Positions 1 to 21,700 of a DNA stretch of 64,000 nucleotides are shown here, one piece after another. The stretch lies in the NCBI GenBank assembly GCA_905178155.1, contig CAJINV010000018.1, positions 316,479 to 380,478 on the forward strand, read 5' to 3'. This DNA comes from Amoebophrya sp. A120. Taxonomy: Eukaryota; Protista; Dinoflagellata. A program made the translations under genes and the position numbers. Under the pieces are notes generated by a model that searched no databases, had not been told where the DNA came from, and saw only the letters and a program-made list of their open reading frames with translations. Numbering within the stretch: position 1 is the first letter of the stretch; each line of letters opens with the position of its first letter.

Positions 1-174
1 AGAGTCCAAGTTTTGCTACACGGAAAGAGCATTTATCATGCGGTATAGGCATCAGGAAGCCCTCACAAAATCTGTGATGCTAGGGCCTGCATCACAGACA
101 TTAGGAGGCATGCAAAGAAAATGTGCATTACAAACCTGGCAATCTTCCAAACCCAGACATTTTTACAATTGATA
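1..174. mobile_element. Introner family A (partial)
   Basis: Ends ...CCCAGACATTTTTACAATTGATA. Confidence 0.8.
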
Positions 175-763
175 GTGGGTGTTATGGAAGGAGCCTTCGC
201 GATCGGAATTCCGGAGCATCTGATCCGTTCCGTCGTTATCATTCGTGAAAAGTCCCCACGGTTTTGCTTTTTGATACGCAACGGACTCCACATGTTCTTC
301 GTACTCTTCCTGAATGAACGACTTCTCCCGCTTCACTCCGAGATTCAAATGGTGGTCCGGCACTGCTTCCGCCCCCAAGGACATTCCCAGGTCGTCTCCG
401 AACCCGAGCAGTTTCCGCATCTTAGTTGCGAACCGGAACATCAGCTCGGACTCTGTGTCCTCCGCTTTATGCAATTGCGACAATTCGTGCTCCGAAATCT
501 GCACAGAGAACTGCAGCCAGAGAACTCTGTAGTCCCTCTCCTGCTTCATTTGGTCAAGTTTCTCTCGTTCATCATCATCCATTTGCGACGGACCTTTCGC
601 GATTGATGTCGGAAGATGACTCGGGGCGGCAGAAGATGGGGCATGAGTATCAGCTTGTTGCGCCGCTTTATCAGGGACTGCAGTAGAGCTGCCGAACAAG
701 CTCCCGGACAGACCCGCAAAGACGGAACTAGATTTCGCTCCACTGCTCGCGGAAAGATTTTCA
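175..763 (-). CDS. Exon of giant gene
   Basis: Open frame (ORF 163..699 extended upstream); in frame with the next exon after introner removal. Confidence 0.8.
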
Positions 764-3700
764 TATCAAAAGGAAAAAACCCCCCTCCCCATATCGAAAA
801 GGAAATCTGTGATGCTGGGTGTGCATACACAAATCAGATTTGTCTTGCAGTAGAGGACTGCGCGCAGATTGCCAGCCTAGATAGGGGCCTTTTGGTGTAA
901 GCGCCTCGCATGGTAGACGGCTGTCCTGTAGTCCTTACAACATCACAAATCGCCAGCATAGCGTGGCAGAGAGCCTGGATTTGCCTTCTCGCAAGACAGA
1001 CAAGATTTGTGGCCACAAATCTGCATCACAAATTTTCAGAAGATACGTTTTCAACAATATGGGGAGGGGGGATTTTTCTTTTTGATATTTCAGGTTCTTT
1101 CCTTTTACTTTCGATCTTCAGCAGTTCTGTGTTTCTCAGCTCGGACTTTGCGTTCAACCCCAACTGCCCGTCAGACACCGTCCCGGTTGGGCTTGTCCCT
1201 TTGATACCCCACATTTGCCGGAACTGCTCGTAGACGAAGCTTATCAAATGCAAATATGTCTGGGTCTGGAAGAGTGTAAACTTGTCATGCAGAGGTTCCA
1301 TGATCCATGAGGTCTGGAATGCGGGACTTAGCATGAGAGACTCTGCGAGGTCTCTGCCATGCCTATCCTGCATGAGAAAGTCCCTCCCAACTTGGTCGAA
1401 AGTGGATAGCTTTCGGCACTCATGCAACACAGATTCTTGTATGCTTCAGATTTACCATGACAAGTTACCACCTTCCAGACCCAGACATATTTGCAATTCA
1501 TAAAGCTGAACACCTCGGAGTTCGACTTGAAATCTCTTTCCGGGTCCGCTTTCTCTGATATAACAGTGCACAAATCCCCCTCCCCCTCATTTGTATAGCA
1601 TGAACGGCAGTACAAGCATCAGCAAGACTGCCGGTTTTGCATGACAAATTTCCACTAGATTATACATAGTGCTATTTTGGCCACCAGAACTTGTCATGCC
1701 AACGGTGCCAAGAGGCATAGGGTGGATTTGGTATTTTGCATGACAAATGAGGGGGAGGGGGAGTTGTGCACTCTCATATCTGAGCCTTTTTTCAACGCGG
1801 TCAGACCTTGATCCAGGGTTTCCTCGTAGTCGCGCCGGTCCGGGGACTCCTCCCATTTCAGGTCGGTCAAGGAGACTTATCAAATGTAAAAATGTCTGGG
1901 TCTGGAAGAATGCAAGATTTGTGATGCAGTTTTTCCATGACCCATGAGGCCTGGAATGCAGCACCTAGCATGACAAACGCTGTGAGGTGTCTATCATGCC
2001 TATCCTGCATGAGAAACTCCCTGTGAAACTAATCAAAAGTGGACATCTTTTGGTAATCATGCAACACAAATTTTTCATGCTTCAGATTCAGCATCACAAG
2101 TTGCATTCTTCCAGACCCAGACATTTTTACATTTGATAAGACTTTTAGACTGTTATCCGATAACAGACCGCGCCACCTCTTGTCTTCATCTTCATCCAGG
2201 CCGTCCTCGTCGCCCTCCTCTTTCTCCTTGCTTTCAAAAACGGCAAGCTGGTCACCGCCGGGCCCAGTTGCGTGTGGGCCATATGAAGATTCGACATACA
2301 TCGAGCCCAGGTCCGTGCCGACCACGTTCTGGGCCTCCATCAAATCCATGTACTGGTCGGCCTCCGAATCATCAGAGTCTGACGCGGTGCTGGAACCCGC
2401 ACTGCCGCGTCCATATCTCGCGCCGCCGCCGGTGAAGCTGCTGAAGATGCCGATGCCGTGCGGCTTTCCCTTCGTTTTCTCCAGCTTCCGCGACGTTTTC
2501 TGCCAGAACAGGATCTCAGTTTTGAAGGCTTCTTCGAGGTGTTTTTTCAGCGGATGCCCGCTGCTGGACTCCCCGCTTTGGTACTGGTAGAGCAGATTCG
2601 CCTTGAAGTCCTGGTAAAATTGTTTCACCTGCAGTCGGCGGTCCTCCTCCTCAACCTTCTCCTTTTGGCCGTTCGCGCCGTGCTTCACGGATTTCGGCAG
2701 ATGCTATGAAATGCAAAAATGTCTGGGTCTGGAAACTTGTGATGCAAGTCAGTCAATAACAAATGCACTGTAATGCGCCGCCAAGCATGACAAGTTGCTT
2801 CGTGCTTCTGTGCTGCGTATTCCGCATGAGAAACTGCGTTTTTGCATGACAGGCGAGAGAGGCTGTTTGTGGCCACGCAATACAGATTTAAGGGCCATGC
2901 CAGATCAGCATGACAAACCTCGCAATCTTCCAGACCCAGACATTTTTGCAATTTATAGATGCAAGTCCAGGTCGATTTCCAACGCGAGGTCAAAGACCAT
3001 CGGCTTCAGCACCATTTCTCGGACCACGACGGCTTTATTCAAAGGCTGCTCAAACGGGCCCAAAAACCGCTCCGGGTGCTCACTGGCACTGCCATCCCCG
3101 CTATGACAGTGCACAACTCCCCCTCCCCCTCATTTGTATGGCATGAACAGCATTACAACCACCAGCACACGTAGGGCCTGCGCATGACAAGTTCACGCGC
3201 ATAGTGAAGTACTGTTTGGGCTTCCGGAATTTGTCATGCAAACAGTGCCACAGGGTGGCGCTTGGATTTGGGATTTTGCATCACAAATGAGGGGGAGGGG
3301 GAGTTCTGCACTATCATAACCGGCCGTCGATCGTTTCCACGGATGCGCCGCGTTCTGTGAGAAAAAGATGGGCTGCTTGAACACACTTATCCAGTGCAAA
3401 CATGTCTGGGTCTAGGAACTTGTGATGCAAGGGAGGGAATTATAGGGAGCGCAGGGCAGCGTAATGCGCTTCCAAGCATGACAGGTTTTTCCATTCTGAG
3501 TTGCGTACTCCGCATGAGAAACTGCGTTTTTGCATGACAGGCAAGAGGAGCTCGTCTTTGTGGCCACGCAATACAGAGCTCAGAGTCATGCCAGGCTAGC
3601 ATGTCAAATCTCGCAACCTTCCAGACCCAGACATATTTGCAATGCATAACGCTGTGCCAGCCCGCTTGCTTCCAGTTGCCCTTTCCCGTCGGCTTGAACG

Positions 3701-6700
3701 CGTAGAGCAGCTCCTGCACTTTCCGCAGCGCGCCGGCCCCGGAGGTGAACAAATTGGCGGACTGGAGGTACTTATCCTGTGCAAAAGTATCGCACTCGTA
3801 GTAATCGCAGTCACGCATGACAAATCTTTTTCATAAGGTAAATCCGCATTACAAATTTTCTTTCTCATGCTAAGCAAATTTGTCATGCGATTTATACTAG
3901 TACGCTGCTTGTTTTGCATTTCATAGTACTGGGAGGCACGGTACGTGACCGACTTGGAGAGCTCGGCGTTCTCCGCGTTGCCACTGTTGTTGCCACCAGG
4001 ATCGCCTCCCCCTCCCGAGCCGCTACCACTCGATCCGGGTTGGAATAACCCCGCGGTTTTCATTTTTTCCGCGTCTTTGGGATCCGGAAAGAGTTCCTCC
4101 TTGTCCCGCTTCACCTGGGCATACTTTTCTTTATCCGCTTCGAACTGGGCTTGCGTAATCTCCCCTCTTTCCAACTTGGCCCCGAGCTTATCCGGGTGGA
4201 AGTCTCTGCTGTAGAGGCGGAACGCTCGCCCGATATCCGAGGGCGTGACGTACTGCAGGTGACTCGCTTTCCTCACATATCCTGAGCAAAAACGTCCCCA
4301 CACCAGAGTCAAGATGGGAAACCTGCTAGACAAATCACACAGCTTTGGTTGTTTGGCATGACAAGTTTGCCCTCGTAGTGTGGTCCTGTTTAGCTAGCTC
4401 AGATGCATAGCTTTGCACAGACCTAGCATAGCATGCTGATCCTAGCATCACAAATCCCAAAACACGACTAGAGAATGCTTCTCATGGGGCTCCGTATGAG
4501 AAAGCTTTTTGGCATGCAGAATTGCATGGCAACTCTGGGGTGTGGGGACGTTTTTACACGGGATATCACAAACTGCCGCTTCTTTGGGTCGCCATTGGCA
4601 CCGGGAGGATCGAACGTGACATTCAGATATTTGTCTCCCATTAACGTCTATCAAATGCAAATATTTGTTCATCTGGGTCCGGATGATTACAGGACCACTT
4701 GTCATGCGGGTTTTCTATAGCCAATGAGGTCTGGAATGCAGGCTCTCAATAGCCCATGACAAGATGCTCCTTATCATGCCTCTCCTGCATGAGAAATCCC
4801 TCTCATCAATCTGGTCAAAAGTGCTGGATAGCTTTTGGCAATCATGCAACACAGATTTTTTGCATGGTTCAGATTTACCATGACAAGTTCCAGTGTTCCA
4901 GACCCAGACAACACAGTTGCAATGCATAACGTCAACATTTTCGTCGAGTCATGCGTCTGCTGGTCCATGGCGCCCCACCACGGGACAAAAGTGTCGGAGC
5001 CATATCCTGTGTAAAAACGTCCCCACCCCATAGTCAAGTTGGGAACTTAGCAACACAAATCCAGAAGTTTTGGGAGCCACGCATGACAAGTTCGTCTTTG
5101 TAGTGTAGTGCAGGTTAGCAAGGACAGTCGCATCACAAACCCATCTCCTCATCCTGTTTGCAGCATTACAAATGCCAAAACACGATTGGAAATGCCTCTC
5201 ATGTAGATGCGCATTACAAATGTTCCTGTCATTGCAAATCTGCATGACAACTCTGGGGTGGGGACGTTTTCGCTCAGGATAAACCAAACGTCTGACTCAT
5301 CGGCTTTTGCATTGGCGTTTCGTTTCGCCTGCGGCTCGCTTCCGAGGCGTTATTGTCTCTCGGAACACATTCGACCCCAGCGATCTGGCCCGGGCCCTTC
5401 GGGGCGGTGAGCGATTCGTTCGCGAGGAGGGTGGTGCATTGGGAGACCTGTAGTTGACAATTTTGTGGCGTTGGAGATGTTGTTGGAGATAGAATACAAT
5501 TCTCTACTTCTCTGCTGCATGCGAATAATTTACTAACTTATTCGCGAAGCTGCATTGTACCTAATTTTTTGTCATCATGCCAGTTGTACTGCTGCGCTCT
5601 CTTGATCTTGAAACGGTGTATTTGCTCAAACTGCTCTTCAAACAAGAGAATCCGTTAATATCGATTTATATCAAATGTAAAAGTGTCAGTGTCTGGGTCT
5701 GGATCTGGAAGAGTCTTGCTGTTTTTGCATGACACACAAGGCCTGGAATGGAAGCTCTAGCATCACAGGTCTCGAGAAGCTTCCGCAATGCCGAATCCGC
5801 ATGACAAATCTGCCACTTTGGTGACAGAAAGTGAGCAGCTTTTGCTACCTATGCATGAGAGATTTTTCTGTGTTCTGAAATGCGCATCACAAGTTTGTCT
5901 TCTTCCAGACCCAGACATATTTGCAATGCATAATTTACACAATACTCTTTTCTACCTTCTCCACATATTCTCTTTCCCGCTTATTCAGTTCCGGCAGGCC
6001 GAACCCGAGATCTTTTTCCATGTCCTCCGGCGCGGTTTCCGTTACCAGCCTATCAAAATGAAAAGTCCCCCCTTCCCATATCAAAACGGAAATCTGTGAT
6101 GCGGGATGTGTGTACGCAAATCACATTTGTCTTGCAGGAAAGCACTGCACGCAAATGGCAAGCCTAAGGGGGGGCCTTTTGGTGTAGGGGCCTAGCATGG
6201 CAGACGTCTGCCCTGTAGGCCTTGCAGCATTACAAACCGCCTGCATATCGGGGCCGACTCTCTGGAGTTGCCTTCTGTCAAGACAGACAGAATTCGTGGC
6301 CACAAATCTGCATCACAAATTTTCGGAAGGACATGTTTTCAGTATAGGGAGGGGGGATTTTTCCTTGCAATACAGCCGCATGTCCTGCTCGACATCTAAA
6401 TTCAATTCCGCAGCCACTTCCAAGTGCACTTCCAACTGCAACTGCACCTCCGCGTCCGCATCTTCCGTGCCCGACTTCTGCTCCCCAGAGCTAGCTGCCA
6501 CCACCGTGCTCGGCAGAGCACGGAAGGACTCAGTGGCGTAGATCGATGCGCGCTTCACCACTTGCTCCAGCGCTTTTTGCAACGAGTTTCTCAACTCCAG
6601 GGGGATCATCGTGGTGAATCGCCAATTCACTTCCTTCATGATCCGAAAAGCGAATCGGTCGATCATCAAAACCGGGTCAATCCGGTCCTGCACCTGCGCC

Positions 6701-9700
6701 ATCTGCTTCCAGAGATTCCCATCTTCCAACGTCAACAGCAAGTCCCTGCACGCGTTGTGGAAGGACTGCGCCGCGAATATCAAAGTGAAAAATTCCCCCG
6801 CCCCTTACTCAAACTAGAAACTTGTGATGCAGATTTGTGGCCACAAATCAGCTTTGCCATGCTAGAAGGGAAAAGATGCGGACTGTAGTGCTGGGTGGCG
6901 TGGGGAAGCCTTGCATCTTTAGCATGACAGGAAGCAACTCGAAGTGGGAAACAGCATGACAAATTGCCTGCAAACGAGGCCACAACTGCGGCTCTTGGCC
7001 TTCGAGCATTACAAGTCGATTTGTGTACTCAAATCCAGCATCAGAAATTTCGTTTTGATATGGGGAGGGGGGATTTTTCCTTTTGATAGCGAACGACTCC
7101 TCCTGGTGGGCTGTCAACTCCTTGCTGCCCAGCCTCGCGTCCTCCGGGACGTACAGGCGGAGGTTCTCCGTCGGCACGTAATGCCGCCGCTTGCTTCCAT
7201 ACCGGAGAGCCGAATAAACGTTCATGACTCGATTCACCACCTTCCCGGCTGCGCTCGCCGTGGCTGACCAGAGCCGGTTCCTGATCCTGCGCGGCCCACT
7301 AGCAGTTGCACTATCATCTCCATCTTCGCTCTGCTTGGTCTCGCATCCGTTGCAGGCCTTGAGCATTTCGACCAAATACCGCAGTTATCAAATGCAAAAG
7401 TGTCTGGGTCTGGAAGGATGCAAGCTTGTCATGCAGCTTTTCCATGACCCACGAGGTCTGGAATGCAGAACCTAGCATGACAGATTCTGTGCGATCTCTA
7501 TCGTGCCTATCCTGCATGAGAAACTCCCTCCCGACTTGGTCAAGACTGGACGACTTGTGGTAATCATGCAACACAGATTTTTGCATGATTCAGATTTAGC
7601 ATGACAAACTTGCATTCTTCCAGACCCAGACATATTTGCAGTTGATATCGGTCCCCAGCTGTTTTCCTCCTGAACAAACGGGTCGTGCTCGTACTTGATC
7701 ACTTTCGCCAACTGCCCGTTGCAGTATGAGAGTGCACAACTCCCCCTCCCCCTTATTTGTTGTATTGCATGCCCAGCAATACAAACACCAGCACAAGAGG
7801 AGCTTGTACATGACAAGTTGATGCGCCTAGTGTAAGTAGTACTGTTTGGGTTTCCGGAATCTGTCATGCAAACAGTGCCACAGGGAAGCACTTGGATTTG
7901 GGGTTTTGCATGACAAATGAAGGGGAGGGTGAGCTGTGCACTCTCATATGCAATACTTGCTGTTCTCCCGGGTTAAGTTTTCCAACACCACATATCAAAG
8001 TGAAAAATCCCCCCTCCCCATATTGAACGGGAAACTTCTGTTGCTGGATTTGTGTACACACATCAGCCCTGTCTTGCTGTGAGGCACTACAGGCAAAGCT
8101 CTAGCCTGCGTATGGGGTGTTTTGTTGTAGGCGCTTAGCAAAGCAGAGGCCTGCCATGTTGGTGAAACAGCATCACAAACCGCCTCCATAAGGCGGCGGA
8201 TTCTTTGGATTTGCCGTCTTGCAAGAGAGACAGGATTTGTGGTCACAAATCAGCATCACAAATTTTTAGGAACATACCTTTTCAATATGGGGAGGGGGGA
8301 TTTTTCCTCACAGTACCACAATATCGCCGGGAGCGAACTTGGTCTGTGGGTAGTCTAACGTTTTGTCCACGAGAATGAAGTATGAACTGCAAAAGTATCG
8401 CACTCGTATAAAAAATGCATCACAAATTTCCTCAGCATGACAAATAAACTTTGTAATGCTGATTAAGGTTAAGAAAAAGATCTATAATGCATGATTGCAA
8501 TACGAGTACGATACTTCTGCACCGGATATGAAGTCGGAACTCTTCCTCGCGATGGTCGTCGGACCGGGAACGTTCCGCTGATCCAGCACGTTTACCGGGT
8601 TACCGCTCGGATTGTACGGCTCCGCCACGCGTTCCAACCTGTACTTGAGCAGCGGCGACTCGTCGAACCGATTCGCCGACAAATTTGGCCTCTCGACGGA
8701 GTGAATCTTCAACAACTGACCCACTGCGTACCGCATGTTCGGATCGTCTGTCCTCTGCTCGTATGGATTGCAAATATGTCTGGGTCTGGAAGATTCTGAC
8801 ACTTGTCATGCACGTGTTGCATGAGCCCTGACGTCTGTGATGCATGCCCTAGCATCACAGATTTTTTGAGAGCTTCTTGATGCCTATTCCGCATTACAAA
8901 TTCCCTCTCCGCGTAGCAAAAGGAGCACTCCCTTTGCTACTTCTGCAATGCAAATGTTTTTGGAATCCAAATGCAGCATCACAAGTTGCATTCTTCCAGA
9001 CCCAGACATTTTTACAGATGGTAGCTCGTGGTAGAAGCTTTTTCGCAGTCGGACGTAGTGGCCCGGATTGAATTCCGGGAATGTTGTCCATCTCGAGGGC
9101 TTATCGAATGCAAATATGTCTGCGTCTGGAAACTTGTAATGTCTAGTCGTGATATGCACTGCAAAAGTATCGTACTCGTATATATAAATGCATCACAAAT
9201 TTCCTCAGCATGAGAAATAAAATTTGTAATGCGGATTTGACTTAACAAAAAGATTTGTAATGCATGACTGCAATACGAGTACGATACTTTTGCACAGGAT
9301 ACGTGAGGATGAGGAAAGGATGCCCTGCAATGCACAGCCAAGCATGAGAAATATTTGCGTGGATTAGTGTTGCGCGTCCCGAGTCACAAACTGCGTTTTT
9401 GCATGACAAGAGAAAGGGTCTCTTCTTGGACACGCATCACAAACTCTTCAGTCATGCAAGACTAGCATGATATTAAATCTCGCATTGTTCCAGACCCAGA
9501 CGTATTTGCGATGCATAGGGCTCCTCTAGCGTCTTTTTCACCTGCTGCCCATTCCCCACACAGCTGCCGTCGGCGACTTTAAAGACGCTGTGCTCGTTGC
9601 AACTCATATTATACTCCATTTCCGGGAGAACATCCGGGATGAAAACGAAACTGGGATTAGTATTCTTGTTGGATTGCGGTGGCATGATCCGGTACAACAT

Positions 9701-12700
9701 TTGGGGGGGCTCTTTGGCTGTTCCTTCGCTCTTTTCCTTCTTCATCTTCCTCACTTTGCTCGCGTCGACTTGTCGCCACGCTGCTGGGAATTCGAGGTTC
9801 TCCGGGTGGACAGAGAAGTGCGTGTCCTGATAGGGTCCGTCCGCCGGGACGACCAATTTCACCTGCACTATGCAAGAAAAAAACTATGTGAGTGTAAGTC
9901 TGTAATGCAGAAAATGCAAAATTGTTACACTTGTCATGCTGGATGTGCGTCGTAGGCTATCATCATCCGTGTTTTCACGTACTAGCTGCGCATGGCAGGT
10001 TTTCCCTGTAACGCAAAACAAATTTGCGATGCTGCTCTGCCTACAAAGGTACATTTACACAGTTTTTTTCTTGCATATGCACCTGGTTGAAGTTATTTCC
10101 AGTCTCCTCCTCCACAACAAATTTGAACTTGTCCCATTTCGTCCGGGAGATGGATTTTAAAATCACCAATTTTCCATCCAGCTCTTCTTTCGTATGGCGT
10201 TCTCAAATGTTACATTCTCATCTGTTACACGATTTGTAATGCAAGAATGGCAAAAGTGAAAGGAAGGGCCTTGCGCGTCTTGCATGACAGATTTGGCACA
10301 GATTCCCAGCCTGTTTGGCCGTCTGAGCATTTGTCATGCAAAGCAGCTTGATGGCGTTGATAGTCAAGGCAATTTTGCATGACAAATCATGTAACAGTTG
10401 AGAATGTAACAGTTGAGAGCGCCATATTTCCCGGTGCCCCGCACCCGGCCGACGACAAACGCGTACCTCAAATGCGCGGCGTTGGCACCGCCACGCGCTC
10501 CCATGGGGCTGCTGGGGCTGGTCGCCCGCTGACCTGCGGCCGCAGCTGCGGCTCGCTTCTGTGTCACTCGAATGTCCTCGTCACGGACGGCTTTTGTGAT
10601 TCGGAAATCACCCCCGTCGAGTTTAATGCGGTACATAATTTTCCGCTTCTCGTTCCGCGGGTCTTCCACATCTATGAACTGCAAAAGTATCGCACTCGTA
10701 TAAATGCATTACAAATTCCCTCAGCATGAGAAATAAAATGTGTAATGCGGATTTGCCTTGAGAAAAAAATTTGTAATGCATGATTGCAATACGAGTACGA
10801 TACTTTTGCACAGGATAACATCGTTCGCTTCGATCACGCCCATCATATCCCCGGTTGTCTCTTATCAAATGTAAAAGTGTCTGGGTCTGGAAGAATGCAG
10901 CTTGTCATGCTAAATCTGAAGCATGCAAAAATCTGTGTTGCATGAGTACCAAAAGTCGTGCAGTTTTGACCAAATCGGGCGGGACTTTCTCATGCAGGAT
11001 AAGCATGAGAGAGTGAGAGGTCGCACAGAATCTGTCATGCTAGGTCCTGCATTCCAGACCTCATGGGTCATGCAAAAGCTGCATGACAAATCGCGCACTC
11101 TTCTTTTTACATTTGATATCTCTTTATCAGGCACGAAACCGCCATTGTACGCACCTGCCAAGCCACCGCCTTTGTTCTTTTTCTCCAGCCCAAATCTTTC
11201 CACGTTCAGAACCTTGACCCTAGTCTTCACCTCCAAGGCCTGTTCCTCATACGCTTCGCGGGTCACGTGCGGCACCTGCTCGTGCTCGCCGAAGGAGAGT
11301 TGAGTTTTCGCCAACTCTCTTGTTCTTTTACTGACCACGTGTTTCGGGTAATAACCGGATTTCAACACGATGTTTTGCGGTTTTACGTCGATTACGTTCT
11401 GCTCGTTGTCGAAAGCGCGGACCCAAATCTTTCCGTTGTCCTTCCTGTACAGAAGCTTCTCCTCCAGCTGCTGTTCTTCGTTCATTTTGTCCTGCCACAT
11501 ATTTCGATTCTCTGTCGTCGAATCTTCTGCAATCAACTTGTCCGCCCGGTGGTTCATTCCGGCCTGTGTCGATTTCGGCTTCCCGAGGATGACCAGCTTC
11601 GTTTTGAAAGACTCGTACATCACACAGAAAAAAGCTGGCCGGGCATATTTGTAGATGCAAAGATAAATACACAAAAAAATCTGCATTGCATATCCGAAGC
11701 AGCATGCTATGGGGCCGCCCATGGCAAATCTTTCTGCGTATTTATTTTTGCATTACAAATATGCCCTGCCAGCTTTTTTCTCTGGGATATCGTAGAGCTG
11801 CTGCAAATCGTTGTTCTCCGCGTTCGTCCGGCGATTCGACCGCCTGGGTTCCGGGAGCTCTCGCAACACCGCAATGTCACCGTATTTGAACTCGGTTTGC
11901 GGCGCCGCGCCGGAAATGAGGTCACCGGACGCACTGAAAACCGCGGAATTAAAGTTGAGCAAAGATCTCCAGTAGCGCAGCGCCCGCTTCACGGTGGACC
12001 GGATCTGCATCGTTAAGGCGTCCGCGTAGTCCTTACGCTCCGTGCCCTCCTGCACAGACCAGGCATGGGCCAACACGTCCTGCTTCTGCACCTTTCGCTG
12101 CCAGAAGTGGGGGATTTTACTCGTGCTGTAGAAGACGAACCGGGTTTGCGGGTCGGTGATGGGTAGTTCACCGTTTAGCCGCGATTTCAAACTTTCGTTG
12201 ACTTCCAGTTTCCCCAGCTCTTCTGTCGTTTTTCCAGTGACTCGGAACCCCGGGTTGCAGTCCACCTTGATACCGGGCCCGGGTGCGTGCGTGAGCGATA
12301 AGCCGTCCCGGCCGAAGGCAAGCTTCTTTACTTCCTTCACATTTGCTTGTCTCCAGCTATTTCGGTCCCCTTCTCGCTCCGTGAAAAACAAGCGGACACT
12401 GTCCAGATCTCCTTTTTTCTCGTAGTCCGCCTTGACCCGCATCGTTTCCGAGAGCAGGGCGCAAACCCTCCAGGTCTTCTTCATAATCTCCTCGTCGTCC
12501 TGCTCCAGCTCGTTCTTTTTGACCTTCTCCTGCAAGGCAGCATCGCCGTCCATCTCCAAGACGATGCCTTTTACCCTCTGTTTCTGTTCGGTTGGGTTGG
12601 CATGTGTCGCCTCAGGATTCACGGGCACGTCTATCAGAACTTTGTCGTGCGAATGCACCGGGTAGAACCAATTCCGGCGGAAGTTCAAGAACAGGTCCGC

Positions 12701-15700
12701 CGTGCGTTTCTCCAACACGAATGCGATGTGCTGCTTCCCGTACGGAAGACCCCGCATCCGCGCAGAGCCCTGCGCCTGCTGGTCCTTCTTCGTTCGCTCC
12801 GAAGCGGACTGGAAGGCCCAGGAATCATCATCGCGGGGGACGTCAGATCCGAATGTGCGCGGTTGGTCGAACCATGTGAACAGCTTGCCTTTCAGCTCAT
12901 CCACCGACTTCTCTGGCGTTGCTTGCTTGAACGATTCGTGTTTCCCATTCTGCAATTGCCGAGGGCTGACGACTATGCATTGCAAAAGTATCGCACTCGT
13001 ATAAATGCATTACAAATTTCCTCAGCATGAGAAATCACATTTGTCATGCGGATTTACCTTGGGAAAAAAATTTGTAATGCATGAATGCAATTACTATGAG
13101 TACGATGCTTTTGCACAGGATAACGAACTGCGTCGTCCGCCGACAGTGCTGCACGACCTCGTGATGTATCAAATGCAAAAGTGTCTGGGTCTGGAAGAAT
13201 GCAGATTTTTGTCATGCTGTTTTTGCATGACACAAAATGTCTGTCATGGAAGCCCTAGCGTCACAGATTTCGAGAAGCTTCCGCATTGCTTAATCCGCAT
13301 GACAAATCTCCCATTTTGGTGACAGAAAGTGGGCAGCTTTTGCTATCTTTGCATGAGAGATTTTTCTGTGTTCTGAAATGCGCATCACAGGTTCGCATCC
13401 TTGCAGACCCAGGCAGATTTGCAATGCATATGATGCGGGTGATTTGGGACGCCATTCTCAGCGTTGTATTCACGTAACCCCCGGAACAATTCCGCGTGAT
13501 GGTAGAGAAAGATCGCGGTCGTCTCGGCGTCGAGATCTTCCCAGAACGCGATGTAAATCCGCTCTCTTTCGTTTTTGTGCGCATAGTATGGATTGCAAAA
13601 GTGTCTGTGTCTGGAAGAATGCAAAAAATTGTCATGCAGGTCTTCCATGACCCATGATGTCTGTGATGCATGCCGTAGCATCACTGATTTTTAGAGCGGT
13701 TGCGATACTGTCACCGCATGGCAAATGCCCTCTCCGCGTAGCACAAACTGGAGTCCTCTTGCTGGTCATGCAATACAAATTTTTTCAGAATCCAGAGACA
13801 GCATCACAAGTTTAGAATGTTCCAGACCCAGACATATTTGCAATGCATACGTAGTACAACATGCCACAGGCGACCACCCGCTTCAACTGCCCCTTGAACA
13901 ACGCGCCCACGTCGATAAACGCGGACACGTATCAACTGCAAAAGTGTCTGGGTCTGGAAGAATGCAGACTTGTCGTGCATATTTTGTATGATGATTGATG
14001 CCTCTAATGCATGATCTAGCAACACAGATTTTTAGAGGGCTTCCTAATCCCTATTCCGCATGAGAAATGCCCTCTCCACGTACTTAACACAAACTGGAGT
14101 CCTGTTGCTGATCATGCAATACAGATTTTTTTGGAATCCAAAGACAGCATTACAAGTTTAGAATGTTCCAGACCCATACATTTTTGCAATGCATAAAACG
14201 CGCGGTTTGTGGATGGCCTGCGCCTCCGCCTGTTTTTTGAAATCTTCGTAAATGATGTCGAAGTAGTCCACCGGGTTCTGAAAGCTGTTCTCGGGTTTCA
14301 TCATGTCAGCGGCGGGAATGCTGGAATCACGCTTCCAGGATTGGGATTCGTCGTAGGTAATCACCATCGTTTTCTCCTCATTCAGCAACCTCCGTCTCAC
14401 GTTCTCCGCCGGGTTCGTATCCGAGGGGTAGACCACCGCCTTCTGATACGTCTTCGTCAATTTGTGCTGCCACCGGTACTATGCATTGCAAATATTTTTG
14501 CATGTCTGGAAGATTGCAACTTGTCATGCTAAATCGGAATCATGCACAAATCTGTCTTGCATGGATACCAAAAGCTGTCAGTCCTCTTTCACTGGCCGGG
14601 TTGGGAGGGAGAAGTTTCCCATGCAGTATAGGCATGATAGAGACTACGACCTCAAAGAATCTGTCATGCTAGGTCCTGCTAACCTGCCCTCACTGGTCAT
14701 AGAAAATCTGCATGACAAGTCTTGCAACTTTCCTCCAGACCTAAATGAATTTGTATTTGATACGTACTGCCACGTCGCCCAGTTTTCCGTCGTACCCGAC
14801 CAAACCGGGATATGGCGTTCTCAAATGTTACATTCTCAACTGTTACATGAATTTGTAATGCAAGAACGGCAAAAATGAATGGGGGAAGCTTGCGCCTCTT
14901 GCATTACAGATTTGGCACAGATTTACATGCTGTTTAGGCCCTTCGGAGATTTGTCATGCGAAGCAGCTTAATAGTGGCGATCTTGGTGGCAAATTTGCAT
15001 GACAAATCATGTAACACATGAGAATGTAACATTTGAGAATCCCATACGGGAAGTACTTACTCGCAAACCCGAGTTCCATCGGCCCCGAAGTGACTTGACC
15101 CGCGTACCGGCGGATTTGCAGGGGGTCCGGGAAGACTTTCTTCGTTAAATACCACAAATTATCAAATGGAAAAATCCCCCCTCCCCATATCAAAATGGAA
15201 ATCTGTGATGCGGAATTTGTTTACACAAATCTGCTTTGTCTTGCAGAAGAGGACTGCAGGCAGATGCAGGACCTGAGTAGGGGCGCTTTGGTGTAGGCAC
15301 CTAGGAAGGCAGGCGCGTCCTCTATAGGCCGCACAGCATTACAAATTGCCTGCAGAATGCGGCGGGGCTTTTTGATTTGCCTTCTTGCAATACAGGGACG
15401 ATTTGTGGCCACAAATCAGCATCACAAATTTTCAGAAGTATCCCGCTTTGGTATGGAAAGGGGGGATTTTTCCTTACGATACAAATTCAGCTGCGCGAAG
15501 CAGAGCCGCTTTCGGTACAACTTGTGCTCCTGCAGGTACTGCATAAACGCCGCGAAAACCTCAATCGTTTTTTCGGAAAACCCACTGCTTACCGTCATCG
15601 CGGCAGAAGCGCCGCTACTATCCACAAACCCGGCGTTTTCTTGTTCTTCCTCTTCCTCGGACATGAGGCCCTGCTTCATGTGATCGACGATCAACTTGCC

Positions 15701-18700
15701 AAGTGCCGACCAGTTTTCTATGGCGCTCTCAAATGTTACATTCTCAACTGTTACATGATTTGTCATGCAAAAACACTGTCACTCTTAATACGATCAAGCC
15801 TTCTCCGCATGACAACTTCTCGACGCGCTAGATAGCATTATAATCTGCTCCAAACCTGTAATGCAAAAGGCGCAACGTTTTTCCTTTCACTTTTGTCGTT
15901 CTTGCATTACAAATTTCATGTAACAGTTGAGAATGTAACGTTTGAGAACGCCATATTTTCGTTCCCGTTTTCCTCCAACTCCTGCTTTAATTCGTGGACG
16001 AAGAAAAACCTGGTGTCGCTGCTCACATCCGCGCCCGCGTCGATCGCGTTGTATTTCAAAATCGTCTCCGGGTGGTCATTATGCATTGCAAAAATGTCTG
16101 GGAGTCTGGAATCTTGTGATGCAAGGAAGGGAATAGCAAGCGCACTGTACTAATGCGCTGCCCAGCATGACAAGTTTTTCCGTGGTCCTGAGTTGTTTAC
16201 TCCGCATGAGAAACTTGCGGGTTTTTGCATGACCGGAAAGAGGAGCTCTTCGCGGCCACGCAATACAGAATTCAGAATCATGCTGGACTAGCATGACAAG
16301 TCCCGCAATCTCCCAGACCCAGACAACATATTTGCATTGGATAGTCATCCGGCACCTTGATGAATAACCTGAATTCGTCGGCCGCGGACGTAGCGCCGTC
16401 GGATTTCAGTCTTTTATGCATTGCAAAAGTATCGCACTCGTATAAATGCATGACAAACTTCCTCAGCATGAGCAATAAAATTTGTCATGCGGATTTACCT
16501 TTGGAAAAATTAAAATTTGTAATGCATGACTGCAATTACTACGAGTACGATACTTTTGCACAGGATATCTTTGTGGCTCGAACAATTCCTCTTGCATCAA
16601 TTCCAGCATTATCAAATGGAAAAATGTCTGGGTCGGGAAGATTCTAAACTTGTAATGCTGTCTCTGGATTCTAAAAAAATTTGTATTGCATGAGCAGCAA
16701 AAGGACTCCAGTTTGTGCTACGTGGAGAGGGCATTTCTCATGCGGTAGAGGAATCGCAAAGTAGTTCTCTAAAAACCTGTGATGCTCGGGCATGCATCAC
16801 TGACATCGTGGGTCATTCAAAATATGCATGACAAACCTGGCAATCTTCCAGACCCAGACATTTTTGCAGTTGATAAGCATGCGCCTCGCTTGGTTGATAG
16901 CTCTCGTTCGGCTGTTCACGCCCCGTTGCTGGTGTGCTGCGCCACCTGATCCGGAATCGGACACGCTGCCAGGATTCTGGGCCTGGATTTTGTGCTTGTC
17001 GGACCACGCGGGCATGTGCATTTTGGTCATAATCGTTTTCATCAAACACTCCCACTGATCCTTGATTAAACTGACCTCGCCCTTCATTTCCGCCGGCTGA
17101 TCTGCCGCCTTGTAGGGGATCGCGGCCTCCAGGGATTCGTCCTCGATCGACCAGCCCGCGTCTTTTCCGATTTCCTTGTCAAAAGCGTCGGGCAACAGGG
17201 GGTGTAAAATCACCTTCGCGACGGCGATTTGCTCCTGTAACCGCTTTATCAAATGCAAAAATGTCTGGGTCTAGAAACTTGTGATGCAAGTCCGTGAACA
17301 ATAAGTGCTCTCTAATGCGCCGCCAAGCACGACAAGTTTTTTCGTGCTTCTGTGATGCGTATTTCGCACGAGAAACTGCGCTTTTGCATGACAGGCAAGA
17401 GGACCGCTTGGTGGCCGCGCAATACAAAGTGCAGAGTCATGCCAGACTAGCATGACAATCTTCCAGGCCCAGACATTTTTGCATTTGATACGCTTAAACC
17501 GCGGGTCTTTTGTGTTCACGTCAGAGATGACCTTGTAAAAGCCCTGTGCGGATTCCTTCATCACCAGGTACTCGGCCTTGTTGGCGTCCTCCTTCTTCGT
17601 CCGATCCCCGTCGTCATCCGCTCCGCCCGCTGCGCCGAGGTCGACACGATGGCGCGTTGCGACTTGCGCGCGATTTTGCTCGGAGGAGGTTTCACTCGTT
17701 TCCAAGGTGTCAGTATTACAATGAAAAATGCCCCCCAACCCCGAACTTGAAAGCATTTGTATTGCAAACCTTTCCAAATGAAACATTCGCCCTCTTGCGT
17801 GTATCAGCATCACAGATTTCCGATCGTGAATAGCAAAAATTTGTATTGCAAAAGATCCCAGCAAGAGCGGTGCTTGTCATGCAAGCGATGCGAAACACGG
17901 CTAGAATCTGCATCAGAAAGGTTCATACTCCTTTCATGCATGACAAAAAGTTTTCATTTGGAAACTTCGCATCACAAATTTTTGCAACTTTGGGGGTGGG
18001 GGGCACTTTTCATTGTAATAGTCAGAAGAGTCAGAGTCGGAACTGGATTCAGAGTTATCCTGAGTAAAAACGTCCCCACGACCCCATAGTCAAGATGGGA
18101 ATCTCGCAACACAAATCGAGAAGTTTTGGGAGTCAAGCATGACACGCTTATTTCTGCAGTGTAGTGCAGTTTAGCAAGTACATCCGCAACACAAATCCAT
18201 CTAGTCATGCTGTTTACAGAATTACAAAGTCCAACACCCGATGGGAAATGCCTCTCATGGGGGTGCGCAATACAAATCTTCCTGTAACTGCAAATGTGCA
18301 TGACAAGTATGGCTATGGGGTGGAGACGTTTTTACTCAGCATAAGATTCGAGGTCCTGTTCGTCTTCCTCCTCCTCATCGTCCTCTGGGTCACCCTATGC
18401 ATTGCAAAAGACTGGCACTCGTACTAATTGCAGTTATGCATTACAGATCTAGAATCTAGAATAGATGCTAAGGCAAATAATCCGCATTACAAATTCAATT
18501 TGTAATCATGCTGAGCCAATTTGTATTGCAATTTACACTAGTACAATACTTTTGCAAAAATGCATAGATCGTCCCCGCCATTGTTCCCAGCCGCTTCTCG
18601 AGCTTTTCTTTCCTGCTCCTCTCTTTCAATAACGCGCCAATCCAGGCCGGCCACGGAACTGCCCCCGACGGAAGACCGAGGTCGTCTTCTACCGCCGAGG

Positions 18701-21700
18701 GAGGAGGCCGCGCGCCCTCCCGCCCTGCTTTCGTTGTCATCGTCATCCTCTTATGAATTGCAAAAGTGTCTGGGTCTGGAAGGTTGCCACGTTTGTCATG
18801 CATATTTTGCATGACCCATGATGCTTGTAAAGCATGGCCTAGCATCACAGATTTTTGGAGGGCATCCTGATGCCTATTCCGCATGACAAATGCCCTTCCC
18901 GCGTAGCACAAAATGAGCTCTTCTTCCTGGTCATGCAATACAAATGTTTTTAGGATAAGGATCCGAAAATAGCATGCCAAGTTGCATTCTTCCAGATCCA
19001 GACATTTTTACATTTGATACCTCTTCATCTTCATCATCTCCCTCGTCTTCTGACTCGGTCTCCACAACCCTCGATTCGGAGCCCGATATCATTTGTAAAA
19101 ACATCCCCACCCCAGAGTTGTGATGCAGATTTGCAATGACAGGAACATTTGTAATGCGCATCCCGAGGATGAGAGGCGTCTCTAGTCGTGTTTTGGAATT
19201 TGTAATGCTGTAACCAGGATGAGCAGATGGATTTGTGATGCGCTTGTCCTTGCTAACCTGCACTATTATACTACGGGCTGCAACTTGTGATGCGTGAGTC
19301 CCAAAACTTCTAGGTTTGTGTTGCAAAATCCCCAGGCTGACTCTGGGGTAGGGACGTTTTTACTCAGGATATCCGAGGAAGCAGCGTCATCATCATCGTC
19401 GGCTGCGGCTTTGACCTCCTGGCGCGCACTTCCGCCCGACGATTTTTTACTTCGCTTCGACCGCACCGAAGCCGCACGAGACCCAGCTACACTACCGCCG
19501 CTCGCGGATAAGTGCGACAAAACCTCTGTGTTCAAAGTCGGTTGCAGAAACCCAGTTGGAGGGGGAGGTGACTTCGGGTCCGCCGTGAAATTTGTCGCAC
19601 GAAAAAAGCGCTTCACTGTAAGGGTTTTGCAGGTTTTGCATCACAATTTTGCTCTACATGACAGAGAAAATTTGCCATGCAAGGTTCCTAATGGAAAACA
19701 CAGCCAAAAATCCACTGTCTTGCATTTGTAGCAAGACAAACAGATGTGGGGTGCATTTTCTGCATTACAAGTTTACAGTGAAACAGTTTTTTCTTGCGAT
19801 AAAATTGGCCGGCGTACCAATCGTGTCCGCCACTCCAGTGTAACTTTCACTGCCGTCCGCAGCGTATCAAAAGCAAATAAGTGTCTGGGTCTGGAAAGAA
19901 TGGGATTTGTGATGCTACCTTTGGACTCTACATAAAATCTGTATTGCATGAACAGCATAAGAGGCGCAATTTGTGCTACGCGGAGAGGGCATTTCTCATG
20001 CGGTATAAGCATCAGAAAGCCCTCGCAGAATCTTTGATGCTAGGGCATGCATCACAGACCTCATGGGTCATGGAAAATCTGCATGACAAACTTCTGCATT
20101 CTTCCAGACCCAGACATTTTTGCAATTCATACAGCGGTGCCATCTACTACTTCTTCTGCGATGGTGGCCATCGGATTTCCGTCTTTGCTAGTACCGATCC
20201 GACTACCACCTGCTCCACCATCACCACCACCATCTCCAGATGCTAAACCTTTGGCGGCTTTCGCCCCCTTCGAGCCCTTCTTTTTTTTCTTGTCGTCCAT
20301 CAGCATGGCTTTTTTCAAGTATTTCTTACAACCCTCGTGGAAGTGCTTTTCCGTCCCATCCGTGATGATGTCGGTCCGCTGGGGGTTTGGACTCGCGCGG
20401 AAAACTCTCTTGAACTCGTTGCACAGGTCATCCACCAGCGGTGCTAACACTTGCTTCTTCAAGAAATTCTTGTCAATTTTCGTCTGCTATGCATTGCAAA
20501 AGGATCGTACTAGTATAGATTGCAATACAAATTTCCTCAGCATGAGAAATGGAATTTGTCATGCGGATTTGCCTTAATAAAAAGATTTGTAATGCAAGAC
20601 TTGCAACATTCAATCATACGAGTACGATGCTTTTGCGGAGGATATCTGCGCGTTTCGCATCACGTCATCCAAAATTTTCCGCCCGCCCAATGCGGCACCG
20701 GCACCGCTCTGCTGACCACTTCCGCCACCTGCGGAGGTCTGGTCCAAGAAACTGGTTGCGGACATGACCTTGTGAAAGATGTAGACCGCTACTTCAATCC
20801 CGTGCTGCGAGATCGGCATGGCTTCCCCCAGTGGGTAGTTCAGCTGTTTTCTGCTGTGGAGAATGTTGTCACCCTCATCTCCAATCATGACCGTGTGCTG
20901 CTCGAAAATGTCGCGGATTTTGCTGTAGACATCGATTTTTTTCGAATGCAACGCGTGTTGCCAGGCGAGCTCCAGCATTTTTTCCGCGTTCGCCCGCGTC
21001 AAAGTATACTTGTTCGGGTCGATTTTCACGTGGCCAAACACCTCCTCTGGAGAAAGTTTCTTTTCCTCGGGTGCCTCCTTTGTCCACTTGCTGTCCGCGA
21101 ACATGTTCCGCCTCTGCCATTGTTCTTTCTCTGCAAAGGGGCGGTCTTCCCCTGGTTTCTGCATCTTCCCATTGTTACCCGCATGAGCACTATCCGCTGC
21201 TTGCTCCACAAGCTCTGTGGGAATCAGCTGGAAGTTCTCGGAAGGAAAAATCCCCCCTCCCCATATCGAAAAGGTGCGTCTCAGAAAATTTGTAATGCAG
21301 ATTTGTGACCACAAATCGTCTCTGTCTTGCAAGGACGTAACTCCACAGGTTCCGCCGCATTCTGCAGGCGGTTTGTGATGCTGTTGGCACTACAGACTAG
21401 ACGTTTGCCATGTTTAGTGCCTAGCCCGAAACCTCCCTACTCAGACTTATTATACATAGGCCTGCAATCCTCTACTGCAAGAAAGTCTGATAGTTTGTGT
21501 ACGCAAATCCAGCATCAGAAATTCAAATTTCGTTTTGATGTGGGGAGGGGGGATGTTTCATTTTGATAGAAGTTATCCTTGCAAGCCTTCTTGGCTGCTT
21601 TGGTGATCAATTCTTTATCGATTACGTCTTCCCAGGATTTCAGTTTTTCCTGATTCGTATCAAATGCAAAAATGTCTGGGTCTGGAAGAATGCAAGATTT

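What the first reader, a model, noticed from the sequence alone, without database searches (positions are those of the whole stretch)
1242..15955. Introners work in either orientation: strand-symmetric removal (RNA hairpin or IES-like DNA excision)
Seen: the same subfamily occurs in both orientations in the same gene. Examples are A at 1242-1502 vs 10863-11118, D at 3773-3925 vs 10673-10817, G at 14811-15046 vs 15719-15955 and E at 4278-4565 vs 30543-30823. The ends read TAT...ATA on both strands. Known: spliceosomal branch point and polypyrimidine signals are strand-specific, while ciliate IESs are removed from DNA leaving one copy of a short direct repeat. Inference: removal depends on end pairing, and stage-specific DNA-level excision cannot be excluded from sequence alone.
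Basis: partly seen in the sequence, partly recalled or inferred. Interest (0 to 1): 0.75.

Follow-up and report, generated by a model that had tools for sequence, protein, structure and literature searches.

The report
Parasite introns spliced in either orientation
A giant gene of the algal parasite Amoebophrya carries more than a hundred already-described transposon-derived introns facing either way; assembled transcripts lack them exactly, likely through RNA splicing guided by their mirror-image ends at an uneven cut position, while removal from DNA is unlikely.

Summary
The elements are the published Amoebophrya A120 introners (Farhat 2021): TAT...ATA inverted ends inside a 5-bp target duplication. 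All eight coordinates are exact and all four pairs are opposite in orientation. Removing 114 elements plus 5 nt each, and two GT-AG introns, opens one 7,889-codon frame across the window. An RNA-type contig skips element+5 nt at 14 of 14 element joints shown, in both orientations, and also skips a GT-AG intron; a DNA-like run keeps the elements. Orientation is balanced in families D and E but biased in A (32:11). Both orientations show only that the signals lie in the inverted ends; they do not favour hairpin over spliceosome, or DNA over RNA. I did not find this stated in the papers I could read: imperfect duplications fit one cut only, 1 nt before TAT and 4 nt after ATA. That is uneven, as in Euglena introns, not strand-symmetric. 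It rests on four junctions, none in a reversed copy. IES-like DNA excision is about 3%. The scan noted similar hairpin introns in another dinoflagellate (unchecked).

The parts
166..64000 (-). One host reading frame of 7,889 codons after removing 114 introners (+5 nt each) and two GT-AG introns; DUF3638 matches in two exons
   Evidence: +2,3,4,6,7,8 nt do not give it; RNA-type contigs cover about 174-12020 and 12043-12968; the rest is by frame only
1242..1502 (+). Introner family A, majority orientation, duplication AAGCT
10863..11118 (-). Introner family A, reversed, duplication TCTCT; RNA 5' arm keeps only about the outer 14 nt of the family end
   Evidence: removed together with 10673-10817 at exact length (41 = 41 nt)
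3773..3925 (+). Introner family D, duplication GTACT
   Evidence: direct joint skipping 158 = 153+5
8381..8528 (-). Introner family D, reversed, duplication TGAAG
   Evidence: direct joint skipping 153 = 148+5
10673..10817 (-). Introner family D, reversed, duplication ACATC
14811..15046 (+). Introner family G, duplication CGGGA
   Evidence: removal by frame only, no RNA joint among those shown
15719..15955 (-). Introner family G, reversed, duplication TTTTC
   Evidence: frame only
4278..4565 (+). Introner family E, duplication TCACA
   Evidence: direct joint skipping 293 = 288+5
30543..30823 (-). Introner family E, reversed, duplication ACATC
   Evidence: frame only; no reads laid here
3102..3318 (+). 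Family C copy with imperfect duplication (CCCGC/ACCGG): 1-4 nt of the left copy kept
3388..3648 (+). Family A copy with imperfect duplication (ACACT/ACGCT): 0-2 nt kept
5003..5281 (+). Family E copy with imperfect duplication (AGCCA/AACCA): 0-1 nt kept
7386..7647 (+). Family A copy with imperfect duplication (GCAGT/TCGGT): 1-2 nt kept
5448..5955 (-). Canonical GT-AG intron, 508 nt, holding family A copy 5669-5932; skipped in the same contig that skips the introners
   Evidence: predicted; joint CT..AC on + strand
9102..9517 (+). Family A copy holding a reversed D copy (9153-9301); removed whole
   Evidence: joint skipping 421 = 416+5
23581..23844 (-). Reversed A copy with a mismatch at duplication position 3: the test for whether the cut follows the transcript or the element
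   Evidence: no reads laid here
39852..40117 (-). Second reversed A copy with a position-3 mismatch, same test
   Evidence: no reads laid here
26403..27995 (-). Inferred GT-AG intron, 1,593 nt, holding a 141-bp x 9.8 tandem array
   Evidence: frame only
41043..48333 (.). 7.3-kb family B introner (duplication ACACA) holding an LTR retrotransposon at 41218-48190
   Evidence: removal by frame only
53987..55972 (+). 2.0-kb family D introner (duplication ATAGT) holding a GC-rich repeat insert
   Evidence: removal by frame only

Best explanation
These are transposon-derived introns with mirror-image TAT...ATA ends inside a 5-bp duplication; assembled transcripts lack each element plus 5 bases whichever way it faces, likely because an RNA-splicing activity reads the ends, probably helped by their predicted pairing, and likely cuts 1 base before TAT and 4 bases after ATA. 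Shown: anatomy, both orientations, element+5 removal in an RNA-type contig, retention in a DNA-like run, and a single register fitting all informative junctions. Inferred: insertion as non-autonomous DNA transposons that duplicate 5 bp; the conserved terminal motif (TAT, G9, A11-13) as the signal; the interior as irrelevant (145 nt to 7.3 kb keep the frame); the transcript, not the element, as the source of the 1/4 polarity. The catalyst is untested; my guess is the host's altered U2-type spliceosome, whose parts Farhat 2021 report except U1 snRNA.
For: 14 of 14 element joints shown skip exactly element+5 (one search showed 15 of 28 joints), including D in both orientations; reversed A 10863 plus D 10673 are removed at exact length. 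The same contig skips a GT-AG intron. A second RNA-guessed run gives the same distance across the four elements between 758 and 2139 (run X4 record 11; same sample as X3). One 7,889-codon frame with +5, not with other lengths. A protein named by its source as Amoebophrya sp. A120 equals the +5 spliced translation over all 174 aa across four elements, one of them reversed. Kept-base ranges 1-4, 0-2, 0-1, 1-2 and 0-4 share only 1; keeping 4 or 5 makes stops at 48392 and 51750. End variants flip with the interior, not the gene strand, and no end position tracks the gene strand after correction (familywise p=0.084). Fold-back predicted with z -9.4 and -8.7, ends paired in 107 of 111. Euglena precedent with uneven 3/5-nt spacers (PMC12501133).
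Against: No G.U excess on the transcribed strand. Positions 4-8 pair poorly, and arms of one element are no more complementary than arms of relatives at positions 4-8 (p=0.84) or 4-14 (p=0.07); the excess at 15-24 (p=0.0002) is ungapped and may reflect subfamilies. The antisense strand folds as well (110 of 111), so folding is no evidence of use. The register rests on four junctions of one contig of one run whose RNA label is a guess, all majority-orientation copies on one gene strand; a variable cut that happens to include these values is not excluded. Family A is biased 32:11 and C 6:0. No RNA joint was seen for the G pair or E 30543.
Confidence: 0.55

Rival explanations
1. RNA splicing at the same 1/4 register, but an adapted spliceosome reads linear signals carried in each inverted end (fixed U at intron +2, a U-run 15-18 nt before the 3' cut); the hairpin is only a leftover of transposon origin.
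For: Conserved end positions are invariant in sequence, not compensatory; G.U equals A.C; no within-element excess at positions 4-14; U in 92-105 of 111 at the four run positions; A enriched at intron +1 (42 of 111, p=0.007 uncorrected among 10 tests) and GA across the 5' cut (21 of 111, p=0.002, post hoc). Fritillaria non-canonical introns are spliceosomal (review PMC11282704).
Against: No fixed terminal dinucleotides: GT..AG in 2 of 111 at this register and GT/GC..AG in 5 of 111 at any. CTRAY in 6 sense vs 7 antisense 3' ends; YTRAY 52 vs 37 of 111, not tested and confounded by the A bias. A 3' cut 4 arbitrary bases past the element is easier to place from a paired stem (inference).
Confidence: 0.3
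2. RNA splicing, but the cut is not one transcript-polar register: it slides within the duplication or flips to 4/1 in reversed copies.
For: All four informative junctions are majority-orientation copies. In Farhat Table S4 the nine top A120 non-canonical pairs all start N-T, and eight of nine end A-N, which a mixture would give, though aligner preference for GT-AG-like letters would too. Duplication mismatches are more often synonymous at + positions 1-2 (13 of 23) than at 3-5 (4 of 21; p=0.015, post hoc), as expected if either copy can be used there.
Against: One value fits three different families; a flip needs the machinery to read interior direction in at least 11 families with little cross-family similarity. 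The synonymous excess also fits constraint on intron +1 and -1 at the 1/4 register.
Confidence: 0.1
3. Stage-specific, IES-like excision from DNA that leaves one copy of the 5-bp repeat; transcripts come from the rearranged template.
For: One repeat copy is left, as with ciliate pointers (recalled). RNA made from an excised template would look the same. The joint table of the DNA-like run was cut (3,912 rows not shown over all runs; some X1 joints not counted), and life stages of the runs are unknown, so absence of element-free DNA is not shown.
Against: Run X1 contigs continue without mismatch from exon into element at 8 of 8 boundaries crossed by the four exon-bearing pieces shown (4 with at least 31 nt on both sides) and across the GT-AG donor, at depth 26-42. 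The element-free contig is spliced RNA. The cut is off-centre, and TAT and ATA are both removed, unlike TA-bounded IESs (recalled). Farhat report putative transposases only in A25, not A120. Dinoflagellates have no separate somatic nucleus (recalled), so excision would erase the elements from progeny.
Confidence: 0.03

Closest known systems
Amoebophrya A120 introner elements (Farhat et al. 2021, PMC7789003)
   Same: Same organism by a 100% identical named protein; ends start TAT, then seven variable bases, then an A-run; 3-5-nt direct repeats (5 bp in Fig. S19 legend); non-canonical boundaries supported by RNA-seq; hairpin proposed.
   Different: In that paper 'orientation' refers only to genes (4 of 4 main-text hits; 3 of 3 in the supplement text), and splice sites are called variable relative to the hairpin. 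Here the duplication is a strict 5 bp and one 1/4 register fits. Figures were not visible to me.
Euglena nonconventional introns (Nomura et al. 2025, PMC12501133; review PMC11282704)
   Same: Non-GT-AG introns with complementary end motifs, frequent direct repeats, suspected MITE origin, and a shorter 5' than 3' spacer.
   Different: Motif CDG/CH'G with 3 and 5-6 nt spacers and a purine at the next exon start, shown by knock-in; here TAT/ATA with 1 and 4 nt, inferred from four junctions. Circular excised RNA is reported there, untested here.
Micromonas and Aureococcus introners (Huff et al. 2016, seen only through review PMC10228655)
   Same: DNA-transposon introns said to insert in both orientations with biases.
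   Different: Those use canonical splice motifs carried or co-opted; these have no fixed terminal dinucleotides.
IS3EU/GingerRoot DNA transposons (PMC10045372)
   Same: TA..TA termini.
   Different: Usually 6-bp duplications; here 5 bp. No transposase was identified.
Ciliate internal eliminated sequences (recalled, no call)
   Same: Short coding-interrupting inserts whose removal leaves one copy of a flanking repeat.
   Different: Removed from DNA in a separate somatic nucleus; here retained in a DNA-like run and missing from spliced RNA.

Membership tests
Amoebophrya A120 introner elements | Inverted ends starting TAT, seven variable bases, then at least three A | tested here: met
   108 of 116 TAT...ATA; A at positions 11-13 in 98-105 of 111 at each end; definition
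Amoebophrya A120 introner elements | Direct repeat of 3-5 nt at the boundaries | tested here: met
   5 bp: 83 perfect, 21 one mismatch, 10 two, 2 three of 116; other lengths do not fit
Amoebophrya A120 introner elements | Repeated, and absent from transcripts at mostly non-GT-AG boundaries | tested here: met
   11 multi-copy families; 14 of 14 element joints shown; GT/GC..AG possible in 5 of 111
Amoebophrya A120 introner elements | In the A120 genome | tested here: met
   P0002, named A120 by its sources, equals the spliced translation over 174 aa
Ciliate IES (Paramecium type, recalled) | Bounded by TA with one TA retained | tested here: not met
   Both TAT and ATA are removed; what remains is one arbitrary 5-mer
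Ciliate IES (recalled) | Element-free junctions in somatic DNA | tested here: inconclusive
   DNA-like run X1 keeps the elements where shown; joint table truncated; stage unknown
Ciliate IES (recalled) | Separate germline and somatic nuclei; domesticated excisase | not testable with these tools
   No genome held; Farhat report no putative transposase in A120
Euglena nonconventional introns | N3-CDG ... CH'G-N5-6 then purine | tested here: not met
   Ends read N1-TAT ... ATA-N4; signature
Euglena nonconventional introns | End pairing needed; released as circles | tested here: inconclusive
   Folding predicted on both strands, no wobble signal; circles not testable from contigs
U2-type spliceosomal introns | GT/GC...AG ends | tested here: not met
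   2 of 111 GT..AG at the fitted register
U2-type spliceosomal introns | Strand-specific branch motif and pyrimidine tract | tested here: inconclusive
   U-run present on both strands by symmetry; CTRAY 6 vs 7, YTRAY 52 vs 37 of 111; no end column significant after correction
U12-type introns (consensus recalled) | 5' site RTATCC and U11/U12 snRNAs | tested here: not met
   16 of 111 start RTATCC; Farhat did not find the minor snRNAs
IS3EU/GingerRoot | TA..TA termini | tested here: met
IS3EU/GingerRoot | Usually 6-bp duplication | tested here: not met
   0 of 113 at 6 bp, 81 of 113 at 5 bp
IS3EU/GingerRoot | Related DDE transposase in an autonomous partner | not tested
   No genome to search

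The most novel reading that the evidence does not exclude
A120 runs a second splicing code, convergent with Euglena's: anything bounded by a TAT...ATA stem is cut 1 base before and 4 bases after the stem, whatever its direction, content or length (145 nt to 7.3 kb, even with a retrotransposon inside), by a ruler-type activity independent of the spliceosome that may release circles. This would make every insertion of these transposons silent at birth. Stage-specific DNA excision would be stranger still but is about 0.03.
Probability: 0.2. Interest if true: 0.8.

Novelty: already known. Interest (0 to 1): 0.4.

Why it matters
How Amoebophrya removes tens of thousands of introns with no fixed end dinucleotides, and no detected U1 snRNA, is an open question (PMC7789003). 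The elements and the hairpin idea are published, and two-way insertion is expected for elements with inverted ends. What this window adds is a testable rule: one 1-nt/4-nt register read from imperfect duplications. It can be checked genome-wide with existing RNA data, could resolve the 'variable' splice sites, and would show convergence with Euglena. It also suggests that current gene models here are fragments of one very large gene.

Tried and rejected
No whole genome was held, so genome-wide orientation counts and a transposase search were not possible. No RNA holder was listed on record; X3 and X4 are guessed RNA and share one sample. Raw-read run X9 laid almost only on element copies (161 reads, 2 at 99% or better), so it says nothing on this gene. 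Two 'longer' protein searches (exons 11795-12967 and 30835-32010) found nothing at 686-2000 aa, so no long spliced protein was available to read junctions; the 'near' search gave two proteins. The profile search of representatives never ran, so distant relatives of the host protein are unexamined. Rfam: 0 matches in 1-20000. Pfam: 3 of 36 exons matched, DUF3638 twice (one above, one below the curated cut-off) and SEO_C below cut-off. Cross-family orientation could not be unified; signals were small (mean score differences mostly under 6 against 66-163 within families; C-G 23). A gene-strand-tracking base in family D (C in 9 of 17 RNA 3' arms, 0 of 17 5' arms, p=0.0009) and one in A (14 of 43 vs 3 of 43) did not survive correction over 139 tests (p=0.084). 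A U12-like 5' site was rejected (16 of 111). Farhat Table S4 was not used as support, because aligners would favour the same letters. My early note that E 4278 and 30543 lie in different genes was wrong. Rows left out: 19 automatic candidates dropped as internal or spurious inverted repeats and 12 added by eye; one end corrected (11618) and partial 48734 set aside, later re-bounded; two nested copies left out of the n=111 counts; a copy cut by the window start (1-173) not counted. Literature searches for orientation of these introners found no statement for A120. Huff 2016, Henriet 2019 and Roy 2023 were not read, so novelty of the register is not established.
Full report
Observation. Self-comparison found 100 repeated segments covering 33,654 of 64,000 bases. 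A scan for inverted ends, manual completion and later additions gave 116 elements. Of these, 108 read TAT...ATA, and 83 are flanked by a perfect 5-bp repeat (at most 6 in shuffles); no other repeat length fits. Each pair aligns better in reverse (0.78-0.82) than forward (0.59-0.68), also without the ends. Family orientation graphs have no inconsistent edge. Counts: A 32:11 (p=0.002), B 9:2, C 6:0 (p=0.03), D 8:9, E 8:7, F 3:2, G 2:1; 8 of 11 multi-copy families show both orientations. Reversed A copies are no older or younger by nearest-neighbour identity (0.824 both) and fall within the same clusters.

Host gene. Removing each element plus 5 nt opens long minus-strand frames; other lengths do not. 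Adding three long or partial elements and two GT-AG introns joins them into one frame of 7,889 codons, 64000 to 166, crossing 114 elements. So 'same gene' holds for all four pairs, for G and E by frame only. A protein labelled Amoebophrya sp. A120 by its sources (GSA120T00014689001) equals this spliced translation over all 174 residues across four elements.

What is known. Farhat et al. 2021 (PMC7789003; abstract, passages, sections 10, 11, 12, 20, supplement parts 2-3 of 5 as text, no figures) describe 29,850 such repeated introns in A120: ends starting TAT with an A-run, 3-5-nt direct repeats, RNA-seq support, a proposed hairpin, spliceosome parts present except U1 snRNA, and no putative transposase in A120. 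The elements here meet that definition. 'Orientation' in that paper concerns genes only. Gozashti 2022 (PMC9860276; passages, section 7) allowed opposite-orientation copies in its search; Gozashti 2025 (PMC12130899; passages) required same orientation. A review (PMC10228655; one passage) credits Huff 2016 with two-way introner insertion in algae. Also seen: PMC11282704 (passages, section 6), PMC12501133 (abstract, passages, section 8), PMC10045372, PMC11453091, PMC12621601 (passages). Huff 2016, Henriet 2019 and Roy 2023 were not read.

RNA or DNA. Run X3 (RNA by guess) has a 7,955-nt contig whose piece coordinates match element+5 removal exactly in 5 of 6 gaps. The sixth is short by 239 nt, which one GT-AG intron explains, and that joint was then seen (508 nt). 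One search showed 15 of 28 joints: that intron and 14 element joints, all element+5, including D forward (3773), D reversed (8381) and an A copy with a nested D removed whole. Reversed A 10863 and D 10673 are removed jointly at the exact length. Because the contig lacks a GT-AG intron it is spliced RNA. Run X1 (kind not on record) runs unbroken across that intron's donor and across 8 exon-element boundaries, 4 of them with at least 31 nt on both sides, so it is DNA-like and keeps the elements. This does not show that no stage excises them: the joint table was truncated, contigs drop rare variants, and stages are unknown. With a single nucleus (recalled) and no known excisase, I put DNA excision at 0.03.

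The register. Where the two repeat copies differ, the joint shows which copy supplied each base. Bases kept from the left (+ strand) copy: 3102, 1-4; 3388, 0-2; 5003, 0-1; 7386, 1-2; 7725, 0-4. Only 1 fits all; 2 fails at 5003, and 3 and 4 fail at three junctions. Frame excludes 4 at 48392 and 5 at 51750. On the RNA the intron is therefore N-TAT...ATA-NNNN. A centred cut and the mirror cut are both excluded for these copies, so the removal is polar, not strand-symmetric. Euglena shows the same direction of unevenness, 3 and 5 nt, by knock-in. Limits: four informative junctions, one contig, all majority-orientation copies, one gene strand. Whether the polarity follows the transcript is inferred, not shown.

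Pairing or linear signal. The RNA 5' end and the reverse complement of the 3' end do not differ over 14 positions (all p>0.24). Elements fold back strongly but equally on the antisense strand. G.U does not exceed A.C on the transcribed strand. Positions 4-8 pair poorly while TAT, G9 and A11-13 are nearly fixed, which looks like sequence recognition by a transposase, a splicing factor or both. End variants flip with the interior. No column tracks the gene strand after correction (p=0.084), so no coding-strand branch motif was found, with low power. For pairing there remain the arbitrary 4-base 3' spacer, the long nested copies that keep the frame and the Euglena precedent. I favour end pairing plus terminal motif (0.55) over purely linear recognition (0.3); RNA-level removal overall is about 0.95.

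Verdict. A real feature, already described as A120 introners. Two-way orientation is confirmed, expected from the ends, and biased in some families. The DNA reading is unlikely. The useful addition is the 1/4 register, which makes the open splicing question testable with existing data. Interest 0.4.

Noticed in passing
window 41043-48333: A family B introner holds a 7.0-kb LTR retrotransposon: 357-bp LTRs, 351 of 357 identical, TG...CA, duplication GGATG, RVT_2 domain. The host frame continues across the whole 7.3 kb. Such nesting could explain the A120 'TIR element with Copia/Gypsy ORFs' family of PMC12130899; not tested.
   Followed up: partly
window 166-64000, minus strand: The whole window is one frame of at least 7,889 codons with DUF3638 matches at 20646-23184; 63% of the window is removed. 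The public model seen (P0002, 174 aa, partial) covers a small piece, so annotation may split one giant gene.
   Followed up: partly
window 53987-55972: A family D introner carries a 1.8-kb GC-rich insert with ~96-bp palindromic repeats and an 11-bp GT-rich array; frame is kept if the whole is removed with 5 nt.
   Followed up: partly
window 40166-40711: A family D introner with an insert, the window's single N and a duplicated ~97-nt stretch around it, possibly an assembly join.
   Followed up: no
window 26403-27995: Inferred GT-AG intron filled by a 141-bp x 9.8 tandem array, 94% matches.
   Followed up: partly
all elements: A 9-nt motif (GCAT[GCT]A[CG]A[AG]) occurs 406 times in 28.3 kb of elements and once in 23.8 kb of exons; every one of 113 elements has it, 82 on both strands. 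It is shared by otherwise dissimilar families and may be a transposase or protein binding site.
   Followed up: no
family D arms, position 21; family A arms, position 15: Two bases appear to follow the gene strand rather than the element side (D 9 of 17 vs 0 of 17; A 14 of 43 vs 3 of 43); not significant after correction. The D change would make a G.U pair in RNA, the A change an A.C mismatch.
   Followed up: yes
window 5669-5932 and 9153-9301: Introners inside a GT-AG intron and inside another introner keep intact ends and perfect duplications although they need not be spliced separately.
   Followed up: no
run X9 on window 10863-10949 and 2138: Raw RNA reads carry an A-like element end joined to flanking sequence that is not in the stretch laid (63 reads), on both mate strands: element-containing RNA or DNA carry-over from another locus.
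   Followed up: no
PMC7789003 Table S4: In strain A25 all nine top non-canonical pairs start TT with a variable 3' end, which would fit a polar register there too (U at +2 again); aligner effects not excluded.
   Followed up: no
exons between elements: Exons are as short as 21-40 nt, with intron phases 48/36/30.
   Followed up: no
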